From the NCBI GenBank assembly GCA_030141605.1, contig JAQGDQ010000076.1, positions 1 to 64,000 of the forward strand: a stretch of DNA of 64,000 nucleotides. Direction: 5' to 3'. Shown piece by piece: positions 101 through 11,629 of the stretch. Numbering within the stretch: position 1 is the first letter of the stretch; every line of letters starts with the position of its first letter. This stretch comes from Tubiluchus corallicola (lineage: Eukaryota > Animalia > Priapulida). The notes beneath the pieces are model-generated. The model was not told the origin of the DNA and ran no database searches. It saw only the letters and a list, made by a program, of their open reading frames with translations. The translations under genes were made by a program, and so were the position numbers.

Positions 101-3100
101 CTTATCAGATGTTTAATAATTATTGCTTGAATCTCTTCCCAGATGACAGTGAAATTAAAACCTTTCTTCTCAAGGTATTGTTGAAACTTCGGTAAAACCC
201 TATGAAAAAATTGAATCCACAAATTAGCTATACAAAAACTGTTTTGTTACATAAATTAAACGCCTAATATGAATTTTGAAATAAAGCCCAGACTAGTGGC
301 AATGTAGCAAGTGCCCAGACTAGTGGCCCATGTAGCAAGTTGGGCAAGAAGCTTCTGGCGCCCTACCTTTTTAATGTTTTTATCATTTGTTTGAAGGTGA
401 ATTCTTTTCTATGCATTGGCCTAGAAAATTTTCTTGTAACACCACAGTCGTTAAACATTCAGCTCTGTCATTAAAACATGCAAAGATTATGAAAGACACA
501 GAACACTACAGGTTTTGAAAATAGTACAATAGGCATTTACAGAATGCATTTACAGACTGTATATAGTAATTAATTAGGTCAGCTACGATGGGCTGTGACT
601 AGACAATTTTGTTGTTGCTGTTTGAAAACTTTTATTAACTGTTTGGTTAATTCCGGATCGCTATTTAATAGTTAACAGTCATTGAAAAATTTTGCGCCCC
701 CTCACCATTGCTTCATGAGGGTGGGTGTGATTGCCCCCTGCCGCAACCACCTTGCTAGGCTTCTCGCCCAAACAGAGCTTGAGGCCAAAAGTGATTCCAT
801 TAAAATGAAAATACATGCATACATCATTAAAATTGAAAGCAAACCAGTGAAGCCTAAACAATCTCTGAAACTACTACGTATGTACAATAGTTACCAAATC
901 AGATGCACACATAGAGTAATGCCATAAAATTAATTACGGTTAAAAAGATTAGCAAAATATGCATACAATTTAAAAGATTAAAAATTAAGAGTGTTTTCTG
1001 TATATATCTGATTTACCAATATCGATGCTTTTAGATAAAAACATACAATCATTGTTGAAAATTTTCATTTATCAAACTATTATGACTATCAAAATAGCTG
1101 ATTTACCAATATCGACGAGCTTTAGATTAAAACATACCATCATTGTTGAAAATTTTCATTTATCAAACTATTATGACTATCAAAATAGCTGATTTATCCA
1201 ATATCGATGAGTTTTAGATGAAAAAATACAATCACTGCTGAAAATTTTCATTTATCAAACTGTTATGACTATTAAAATGGCTGATTTATCCATATTGATG
1301 AGTTTTGGATAAAAAGATACAATCATTGTTGAAAATTTTCTTTTATCAAACTGTTATGACTATCAAAATGACGCATCATTAAATTACAATCCATTTTTAT
1401 TTTTCCATAAAATAACGTCAAAATAAGGCTACGTGAGACTAAAGCACGCACTTTTGGCGGAGCAATTGAAGGGTTGTTCAAAAACTAGGCGAATTATTAA
1501 AATTATATATTGTATAATAATTATAGGCGACTTTTACATATTTGAAGCTATAATAGTAAAAGTTGTGCCAAAGTGCTGAGCAATAAAAATTTGTACAATG
1601 GAGACATAAATAAAATTAGTTTGACTTAGAAGCTACAGATGGAAAAAGTTCGAAAAAAATTTGTTCGAGTTGATGTAAAAAAGTGACCGATGTCTCTAGA
1701 TTTCTTTGTCATCTTTTCCTTGATTGCCAATTGCATGATCTAGATACTTTCACAGGTGACTAACTGGGGTAATGTATCACCTAAGCTTACACCACCTGTA
1801 TGTAATTTGCTCATTGTATTTGGCTTAACAGAAAGTACTATAGTTTTTCCCCAATTACGCAGATGGCGTTGTTTTTAGCAAACTCATTATAAATCTTGAT
1901 TAACTGGTGAAGAGCAGGGCTTGATGAAGTAAAAAACACAAACATCGTCAGCATGTAATAGATGATCAACATGCCTTTCACGTACTGCGCAACAAAGTTT
2001 CGAATTAATTAGTTGTACACGTGAATCATAAAAATACGTGTTTAAAAGTTTGGGTGATAGTGACTTCCTTCTATACGACTTTTCAAAACTCACCAAAAAA
2101 CTTTTCCAGCTGCTCTGCGTTGACGATAGTCAGGGTAACGTTTACTCACAGCTACATTTGTCACATGCATGAAAATATCTTCTACGTCATGAGAATTTGC
2201 AACTGAGTATCTGTGTCCAATACAAAACGGGTTGAGACCATTTAAACTAGCATTTCAACAGGTTTTTTGATAAAGATTTTATTTGTTTATTACTTATTTA
2301 ATTTAATTTTTATTTTAGATTTAAATTAATATGTAAATAAAATTTATGTAACATGTACATAATAATATGTAAATCAGAATATTTATATATTTATGTAAAT
2401 AAATATGTATATAATTATTTTAGATATAAATTAATATGTAAAGTACTACATAAAGTAATGCTGTACATAATGAAACCATATACGCCAGATGTAGTACAAA
2501 ACTGTACAAGAGGAGCACAGGTTTGTTTAAATAATCAATTAAGAGGTTAGGAAAGAGTTTCAATATTTGAAGTACAATGACTTATAACAAATGTCTGTAT
2601 CAGTTATACTACATAATAGCAGTAATCAGTAATACTGTAATCAGTAATCAGTAAAATCAGTAATACTACATAATAGCAGTAATATGAAAATAAGATAAAT
2701 ATGAAACTACACATAAAATAAAGGTGTCAGTAAAATAAAGAGTACAGAAAGTATGAAGAGGCTGTATGAAAAAGTAAAAAAAACAAAAGAACACACATTG
2801 TACACCTTTGTTTTATATGTAGATTCATCTGTAATTTTTATTATTGTATCTTTCTGTGCAGCTGATGAAGTCCGAGAGGACGAAAGCTCCTGAAGAAAAA
2901 AATGAAGAAATTTGTGAGCATTTTAATTTCTTTTACGATTATGACCATGGCAAATCTCTGAAGAGCACTATCTTATTTTCATATTACTGCTATTTAAAAT
3001 TCCATTTCTTAGCTTAAACACATTTATGCAGTAAGACTATAAAGTGACCAGTACGATTGTTTGCCCAAATTACAGACGCATGCGCACCATATTCATAATT

Positions 3101-11629: not shown

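What the first reader, a model, noticed from the sequence alone, without database searches (positions are those of the whole stretch)
101..11629. TTLL4-like glutamylase apparently re-routed to the secretory pathway
Seen: exon 11629-11563 encodes MWCLEVVLSCCVVLSLLNGLLA. It has an in-frame stop just upstream of the ATG and a GTAAG donor, and it joins in correct phase to the TTLL4-like catalytic exons. The long disordered N-terminus of TTLL4 is absent. The spliced protein has three N-x-S/T sequons (WNDSL, WNDSS, FNFT). Known: characterised TTLL4/5 enzymes are cytosolic, ciliary or nuclear ATP-grasp ligases that branch Glu onto acidic tails. Inference: this is a lumenal or extracellular amino-acid ligase, meaning side-chain (poly)glutamylation-type chemistry on secreted proteins, which I do not know to be described for this clade.
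Basis: partly seen in the sequence, partly recalled or inferred. Interest (0 to 1): 0.88.

Follow-up and report, generated by a model that had tools for sequence, protein, structure and literature searches.

The report
Tubulin-ligase duplicate carrying a secretion signal
An animal gene copy derived from the tubulin-modifying enzyme TTLL4 keeps its ATP-binding residues but has altered substrate pockets and a likely first exon that looks like a secretion signal, so it would probably attach amino acids, possibly not glutamate, to molecules in the secretory pathway rather than to tubulin.

Summary
The nine-exon minus-strand gene is real: GT-AG introns, 354 residues, no stop. It is a long-branched TTLL4 offshoot with one close relative, P0001. 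No RNA run held the locus, so the junction is unproven. 'Glutamylase' is doubtful: the six in-window ATP/phosphate residues are kept, but the initiase Arg is Met and the donor-glutamate lysine is out of register; P0001 has Phe at the second lysine. The catalytic Asn, in a sequon in 205 of 208 homologues, is not in one here. A secreted TTL-like enzyme was predicted in 2010 (C7orf58/CPED1), and this scan noted a different one in a protist. Verdict: new variant of a known kind; likely secretory, substrate open.

The parts
11563..11629 (-). Exon 1: ATG, 22 codons of signal-peptide-like sequence, phase-1 GTAAG donor
   Evidence: junction to exon 2 inferred, not observed
11642..11644 (-). In-frame TAA upstream of the ATG; a weak-to-moderate AG acceptor candidate at 11633-11632 lies between them
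9544..9711 (-). Exon 2: linker with sequon N44, internal Met in a good start context (A at -3, G at +4), Cys51, TTLL4 SLF-x-x-V-x-P strand
8717..8836 (-). Exon 3: TTLL4 N-domain
7725..7807 (-). Exon 4: N-domain strand with the conserved W-G replaced (shared with P0001), Cys129
5658..5855 (-). Exon 5: gamma-phosphate Lys (TTLL6 K125) and alpha-phosphate Lys (K174); one-residue insertion shared with P0001
   Evidence: Pfam TTL 34.2 bits
4801..4880 (-). Exon 6: phosphate-binding loop; Met where TTLL4 initiases have Arg and elongases Gln (TTLL6 Q180)
3584..3715 (-). Exon 7: catalytic arginines (TTLL6 R219, R241) kept
   Evidence: Pfam TTL 33.5 bits
2094..2210 (-). Exon 8: T263 and N264 kept; N-Y-S changed to N-V-A, which removes the sequon on the catalytic Asn; donor-glutamate Lys (K283) out of register
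101..199 (-). Exon 9: C-domain helix, sequon N337; the gene runs off the window before the Mg-binding Asp and ExN motif
13154..13215 (-). Orphan last exon of another TTLL4-type copy: T-rich phase-1 acceptor, 20 codons, stop, AATAAA at 13116 and 13106; marks an upstream gene end 1.5 kb before exon 1
   Evidence: best of 3363 six-frame peptides, E 4.9e-5 (1.3e-4 without P0001 in the profile)

Best explanation
[quoted passage not shown] Shown: exon structure, TTLL4 ancestry, retention of the six in-window residues that bind ATP and the transferred phosphate, and changes at the acceptor-selecting and donor-glutamate positions. Inferred: exon 1 is spliced to exon 2; the peptide is cleaved near the exon junction; the enzyme phosphorylates a carboxylate on a secreted protein or glycan with ATP and then forms an amide with a free amino acid, as TTL-family enzymes do on tubulin; the altered pockets point to a neutral or aromatic donor and a non-tubulin acceptor. 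Leaky scanning to the internal Met could give a cytosolic form as well.
For: Exon 1 donor 1 of 203; most hydrophobic of 27 candidates, the second being the exon upstream of the Ig-domain exons; 0.4-2.1% in simulations; phase-1 intron at the predicted cleavage region, the pattern reported for signal peptides (PMC1626468 passages). A TTLL4-type last exon with stop and AATAAA ends 1.5 kb upstream, and the LRR gene further up has its own transmembrane and last exons, so nothing else needs exon 1. K125, K174, R219, R241, T263, N264 equivalents kept, five of which (all but T263) the TTLL6 paper reports as essential. N264 sits in an N-x-S/T sequon in 205 of 208 homologues but not here, the change a lumenal copy would need to stay unglycosylated at its active site. 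Q180/R position is Met (Arg 108, Gln 62 of 210 homologues); K283 position is Val or Phe (Lys in 191 of 210); P0001 has Phe at K377 (Lys in 208 of 210) after a six-residue deletion; TTL has Tyr there for its aromatic donor. P0001 keeps the Mg-binding Asp and ExN and folds like TTLL6 (pLDDT 87.4; Z 40.6, rmsd 3.4, 362 aligned). The only one of 117 N-terminally complete homologues with a comparably hydrophobic start, Lingula XP_013413700.1, groups with this pair.
Against: No transcript shows the junction. P0001 starts at a Met inside the N-domain, so it says nothing about a signal peptide, keeps the sequon on the catalytic Asn and has Ala for the near-invariant G181. The internal Met has the better start context. 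The Lingula grouping is unstarred (87/52), joins long branches, and its hydrophobic stretch is weaker (2.48 against 2.87). The window protein has lost 6 of 29 near-invariant columns and P0001 8 of 40, which fits decay as well as retuning. Bee TTLL4-like proteins also lack K283 and the Arg without a hydrophobic start, so pocket changes do not imply secretion. The catalytic C-terminal exons of this gene lie outside the window.
Confidence: 0.45

Rival explanations
1. Exon 1 is not part of the main transcript. Translation starts at the internal Met in exon 2 (or after a non-coding exon), giving a short cytosolic TTLL4 paralogue with altered specificity.
For: Internal ATG has A at -3 and G at +4 and lies 22 residues before the first conserved motif; short-N-terminus TTLL4s are common (32 of 87); a second donor at 10042 scores almost as high (9.5) though without an in-frame ATG; core is as basic as cytosolic TTLL4s (44 K/R, 23 D/E).
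Against: Leaves the best donor in the interval, in frame with an ATG and a signal-like peptide, as a 1-2% coincidence; does not explain loss of the active-site sequon.
Confidence: 0.24
2. The protein is secreted but catalytically dead or weak: a TTLL4-fold binding or structural protein.
For: 6 of 29 near-invariant columns changed; K283 or K377 to Ala brings TTLL6 to background; P0001 would be glycosylated on the catalytic Asn if secreted and has G181 to Ala; the 2010 paper reports inactive versions of secreted C7orf58 in teleosts and molluscs; ATP supply outside the cell is doubtful (own knowledge).
Against: All ATP- and phosphate-binding residues are kept in both proteins although they are only 43% identical; the changes cluster at substrate-selecting sites.
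Confidence: 0.16
3. It is secreted and still a glutamylase, branching Glu onto acidic secreted proteins.
For: R241 (donor alpha-carboxylate) kept; a Lys lies one to two residues from the K283 column and the alignment there is ambiguous; P0001 has Arg at K283; the window gene's own K377 is unseen.
Against: Met instead of the initiase Arg; K283 column Val or Phe; P0001 Phe at K377.
Confidence: 0.1
4. The hydrophobic exon is an internal exon (11631-11563, phase 1 at both ends) that acts as a membrane anchor in a read-through with the upstream LRR-mucin gene, leaving the ligase domain in the cytosol; or the locus is a decaying duplicate.
For: AG before the ATG scores 3.4 bits; upstream LRR exons end in phase 1; 19-residue hydropathy 2.2 is enough for a membrane helix; an orphan exon shows that the locus has been rearranged.
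Against: The LRR gene has its own membrane exon followed by basic residues and its own last exon; two stop-bearing last exons lie between; residues after the hydrophobic stretch are acidic, against the positive-inside rule (own knowledge); nine intact exons without a stop argue against decay.
Confidence: 0.05

Closest known systems
TTLL4 tubulin monoglutamylase (branch-initiating; Pfam PF03133)
   Same: Same fold and domain order, TTLL4-type N-domain and C-terminal helices; 35-38% identity to named animal TTLL4s; inside the animal/choanoflagellate TTLL4 clade (97/92*); ATP and phosphate residues kept.
   Different: Signal-like first exon; Met at the initiase Arg; donor-glutamate lysines altered; conserved W-G motif replaced; one-residue insertion before the gamma-phosphate Lys; long branch (1.38 plus 0.94 shared with P0001).
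C7orf58/CPED1 ATP-grasp domain (Anantharaman and Aravind 2010, PMC2824669)
   Same: A TTL-like ATP-grasp domain predicted to be secreted and to ligate amino acids onto cell-surface polymers; function untested in the passages read.
   Different: CPED1 is fused to cadherin-like and PC-esterase domains and was found only by iterated profile search; this gene is a recognisable TTLL4 derivative whose relative P0001 ends after the TTLL4-type last helix. Likely an independent origin; CPED1 was not in my tree.
Tubulin tyrosine ligase (TTL)
   Same: Aromatic residue in place of K377 (Tyr in TTL; Phe in P0001), non-glutamate donor pocket.
   Different: TTL is cytosolic, a distant branch (P0001 E 3e-13 to TTL against 5e-48 to TTLL6) and has Glu at the other lysine; the resemblance is one residue in a relative, not in the window.
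Lingula anatina XP_013413700.1, annotated TTLL4 (P0116)
   Same: Short, divergent TTLL4-like protein with a hydrophobic N-terminus, altered Q180 position (Gly), groups with this pair at 87/52.
   Different: Truncated gene model (322 aa, no ExN), weaker hydrophobic stretch, lacks the pair's insertion; grouping may be long-branch attraction.

Membership tests
TTL/TTLL ATP-grasp ligases (PF03133) | TTL domain above the Pfam cut-off | tested here: met
   exons 5 and 7 score 34.2 and 33.5 bits against 20.1; 2 of 6 exons passed, exon 8 matched below cut-off; P0001 241.9 bits
TTL/TTLL ATP-grasp ligases (PF03133) | ATP and phosphate residues K125, K174, R219, R241, T263, N264 (TTLL6 numbering) | tested here: met
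   6 of 6 kept in the window protein and in P0001 (roles)
TTL/TTLL ATP-grasp ligases (PF03133) | Mg-binding Asp (D346) and ExN (E359) | not testable with these tools
   exons lie beyond window base 1 and no genome is held; both kept in P0001
TTLL4 clade | Branches with animal TTLL4 rather than TTLL5/TTLL1 | tested here: met
   35-row IQ-TREE, clade of 28 rows at 97/92*; outgroup held only protist TTLL4/5-like rows and one Ciona TTLL1, no animal TTLL5, 6, 7, 9, 11, 13 or glycylases
TTLL4 branch-initiating glutamylases | Arg at the TTLL6 Q180 position | tested here: not met
   Met in the window protein; Arg in P0001; Arg 108, Gln 62, Cys 23, Ala 14 of 210 homologues
TTLL glutamylases | Donor-glutamate Lys at K283 | tested here: inconclusive
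   Val by MAFFT, Phe if anchored on the following Trp; a Lys lies 1-2 residues upstream; Arg in P0001; Lys in 191 of 210 homologues
TTLL glutamylases | Donor-glutamate Lys at K377 | not testable with these tools
   outside the window; Phe after a six-residue deletion in P0001, Lys in 208 of 210 homologues
Secretory-pathway proteins | Cleavable N-terminal signal peptide on the translated mRNA | tested here: inconclusive
   hydropathy, exon phase, donor rank and chance rate support it; no predictor available, junction unobserved
C7orf58/CPED1 secreted TTL-like proteins | Fusion to cadherin-like and PC-esterase domains | tested here: inconclusive
   P0001 shows only TTL/ATP-grasp matches and ends after the TTLL4-type last helix, as does the orphan exon; this gene's own 3' end is outside the window

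The most novel reading that the evidence does not exclude
A tandemly duplicated TTLL4 offshoot in some invertebrates, possibly shared with the brachiopod Lingula, has moved into the secretory pathway, shed the glycosylation site on its catalytic asparagine and swapped its glutamate pocket for one that takes a neutral or aromatic amino acid, creating an undescribed side-chain aminoacylation of secreted proteins.
Probability: 0.2. Interest if true: 0.85.

Novelty: new variant of a known kind. Interest (0 to 1): 0.58.

Why it matters
All characterised TTL-family ligases act in the cytosol, cilium or nucleus (own knowledge). A secreted member was predicted in 2010 for C7orf58/CPED1, and my searches returned no paper testing one. 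A copy this close to TTLL4 can be read residue by residue against the TTLL6 structures, so it gives a direct test of whether ATP-dependent amino-acid ligation happens on secreted proteins and of how the donor pocket is retuned. It would also be a clean case of re-localisation by gain of one exon, with a predicted compensating change at the catalytic asparagine.

Tried and rejected
No genome is held for the window, so a separate canonical TTLL4, the downstream exons and the rest of the upstream copy could not be checked. No RNA holder listed; the one listed run laid only short unrelated pieces on introns at 9480-9830 and 4700-6000: no evidence either way. Word-index search with exon 5 found nothing; with P0001 and with alignment A3 it returned canonical TTLL4/5-like proteins and no further member of the pair among the 120 listed of 365 and 358 hits, but one search did not list P0116, a row of its own query, so these blanks are weak. 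Metagenome scans: none of 600 and one weak 18-residue match of 126 candidates. ESM Atlas gave only TTL-family clusters. Exon 5 alone was too short for the PDB search. Sequon count and missing N-terminus as evidence for secretion: rejected. Segment 2889-2806 as an extra exon: rejected, it has stops in the frame required after exon 7. Other exons of the upstream copy: not found between 13.2 and 64 kb with tblastn (6 queries) or a profile. A disulfide between Cys51 and Cys129 could not be tested; neither Cys is conserved in P0001 or P0116 at those columns. The mucin-donor value and the Ig-donor value were mis-indexed and are not used. Literature searches for a secreted TTLL4-type enzyme returned nothing relevant beyond PMC2824669 (listings only). 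The alignment figure of the TTLL6 preprint (its Supplementary Fig. 7) could not be seen and bears on the residue comparisons. The organism was not identified.

Full report
Setting. The window is about 33% GC and intron-rich and carries GH1, LRR, C1q and Ig-domain exons and a LINE-type reverse transcriptase, so it is an animal genome; no assembly is held and I did not identify the organism.

Gene model. Nine minus-strand exons (11629-11563, 9711-9544, 8836-8717, 7807-7725, 5855-5658, 4880-4801, 3715-3584, 2210-2094, 199-101) join through GT-AG introns with matching phases into 354 residues without a stop. Exons 5 and 7 pass the Pfam TTL cut-off alone; exons 2-9 are placed by homology. The gene leaves the window before the Mg-binding Asp and the ExN motif. 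Exon 1 has no homology support and is the point in question.

Is exon 1 the coding first exon? A matrix built from the eight homology-supported donors ranks its donor first of 203 GT sites between 13100 and 9720 (9.6 bits; next 9.5 at 10042, with no in-frame ATG). Of 27 ATG-to-phase-1-GT(A/G)AG candidates on both strands of the window it is the most hydrophobic (11-residue mean 2.87); the second (2.64, at 61305) lies upstream of the Ig-domain exons and serves as an internal comparison. In Markov simulations of a 3.4-kb interval such an exon appeared in 13 and 27 of 3000 runs at 2.85 or more, and 39 and 63 of 3000 at 2.6 or more (orders 2 and 4; thresholds set after the fact, training sequence included the locus). 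A phase-1 intron near the cleavage site is the reported pattern for animal signal peptides (PMC1626468, passages). Two cautions: an AG just before the ATG scores 3.4 bits, within the range of true acceptors, so the upstream stop is not proof of a start exon; and the internal Met of exon 2 has the stronger start context.

At 13215-13154 a T-rich acceptor opens a 20-codon frame that ends in a stop followed by AATAAA at 13116 and 13106. It matches the last helix of TTLL4-type proteins: 9 of 15 identical to the end of P0001 (tblastn E 0.35), and first of 3363 six-frame peptides against a profile of that helix (E 4.9e-5; 1.3e-4 without P0001; next 0.26). It is the last exon of another copy, whose remaining exons are not in 13.2-64 kb. 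The likeliest reading is a head-to-tail duplication later cut by a rearrangement, which puts exon 1 in the first 1.5 kb after a gene end. Further up, the LRR gene has its own mucin exon (19969-19713), membrane exon with basic residues after it (17314-17180) and acidic last exon (15628-15144), so it does not need exon 1 as an anchor.

No expression data. No RNA holder was listed, and the one run offered did not cover the exons. The junction is inferred.

Relatives. HMMER over 1.84 billion representatives with exon 5 gave 177 hits at E up to 0.001 and one at 1e-10 or better: P0001, 61% over the exon and 43% over 242 residues of the spliced protein, an unnamed Logan record that begins at a Met inside the N-domain. 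The two share a one-residue insertion and a replaced W-G motif and form a clade in both trees (0.999 in 118 rows; 100/99* in 35 rows), inside a 28-row animal/choanoflagellate TTLL4 group (97/92*). The outgroup lacked most TTL subfamilies. Of 117 stored homologues that start with Met and have 120 or more residues before the central motif, one has an N-terminal hydrophobicity of 2.4 or more: P0116, Lingula anatina XP_013413700.1. It joins the pair at 87/52, unstarred and on long branches, and did not in the FastTree run; this is a lead only. A model of P0001 (pLDDT 87.4, pTM 0.88) matches TTLL6 best (Foldseek E 8e-28; Z 40.6, rmsd 3.4, 362 aligned).

Active site. Residue roles are from the TTLL6 preprint (10.1101/2020.06.07.139295; abstract, passages and section 8 read), mapped through the P0001-TTLL6 alignment and a 210-homologue alignment. 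Kept in the window protein: K125, K174, R219, R241, T263, N264 equivalents. P0001 keeps these and the Asp and ExN. Changed: Q180 position Met (Arg marks initiases such as TTLL4); Y265 Val; S266 Ala; K283 column Val or Phe with a Lys one to two residues away. P0001 has Arg at K283, Phe at K377 after a six-residue deletion, and Ala at G181. The paper states that both lysines are invariant in glutamylases, that losing either abolishes TTLL6 activity, and that TTL has Tyr at K377 for its aromatic donor. So the ATP chemistry looks intact and the glutamate specificity does not. Against over-reading: 20 of 210 homologues lack one of the lysines in this alignment, mostly bee TTLL4-like proteins with Met at K283, and the window protein has changed 6 of 29 near-invariant columns, P0001 8 of 40.

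Sequons. The three sequons are not evidence: the core has 2, against a mean of 2.8 in 143 homologues. The informative one is absent: the catalytic Asn (N264) begins an N-x-S/T sequon in 205 of 208 homologues, and the window protein reads N-V-A. A lumenal copy would be glycosylated on a residue whose loss abolishes activity unless this changed (inference). P0001 keeps the sequon, which counts against it being an active secreted enzyme, or means the site is not used.

Mechanism. Most likely (0.45): signal peptide cleaved near the exon 1-2 junction; lumenal ATP (secretory-pathway kinases such as FAM20C show it is available; search listing and own knowledge) is used to phosphorylate an acceptor carboxylate, and a free amino acid, probably not glutamate, is ligated to it. 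Rivals: cytosolic protein from the internal Met (0.24), secreted pseudo-enzyme (0.16), secreted glutamylase (0.10), membrane-anchor read-through or decay (0.05). Summed, entry into the secretory pathway is about 0.7.

Prior art. Searches for a TTLL4-derived secreted enzyme found none (listings only; the library omits most subscription journals). The scan holds no look-alike of this locus.

Verdict. Observation mostly confirmed, two supporting arguments void, two new ones added; interpretation partly supported, with 'glutamylase' in doubt. New variant of a known kind; interest 0.58.

Noticed in passing
window 13154-13215 (-): Orphan last exon of a second TTLL4-type copy, with acceptor, stop and polyadenylation signals intact but no upstream exons in the window; AAT/CAA microsatellites at 13251-13429 lie just before it and may mark a breakpoint.
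   Followed up: yes
window 15144-22669 (-): LRR-mucin-transmembrane gene whose likely last exon (15628-15144) encodes a 160-residue cytoplasmic tail with 53 Glu and 24 Asp in 8.5 copies of a 14-residue repeat; a tubulin-tail-like acidic stretch next to a TTLL gene, probably coincidence as it would be cytosolic.
   Followed up: partly
window 19942-21308: 39 copies of a 35-nt repeat whose unit contains a splice acceptor and the first codons of the LRR C-terminal cap exon; the array is an amplification of an intron-exon boundary and offers many decoy acceptors.
   Followed up: no
window 26052-37649 (-): Glycoside hydrolase family 1 gene whose last exon ends in a hydrophobic tail (GPI-signal-like, by eye).
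   Followed up: partly
window 52941-61305 (-): Multi-Ig-domain gene with a signal-like phase-1 first exon at 61305 and a TATA-like motif about 85 nt upstream; used as an internal comparison.
   Followed up: partly
window 44678-45007 (-): C1q-domain exon (Pfam 22.9 bits, just under the cut-off).
   Followed up: no
window 47577-50859 (-): LINE-type element with endonuclease and reverse-transcriptase frames, split into two overlapping open frames near 49111-49181.
   Followed up: no
P0116 (Lingula anatina XP_013413700.1): Divergent, truncated TTLL4-like model with a hydrophobic N-terminus and Gly at the Q180 position; candidate second secreted TTLL4 offshoot.
   Followed up: partly
P0179, P0183, P0186-P0192, P0194, P0196, P0198, P0199, P0202: TTLL4-like proteins, nearly all named from bees, with Ala at the initiase Arg and Met or Ile at the donor-glutamate Lys K283: a separate clade with an altered pocket, still annotated as monoglutamylases.
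   Followed up: no
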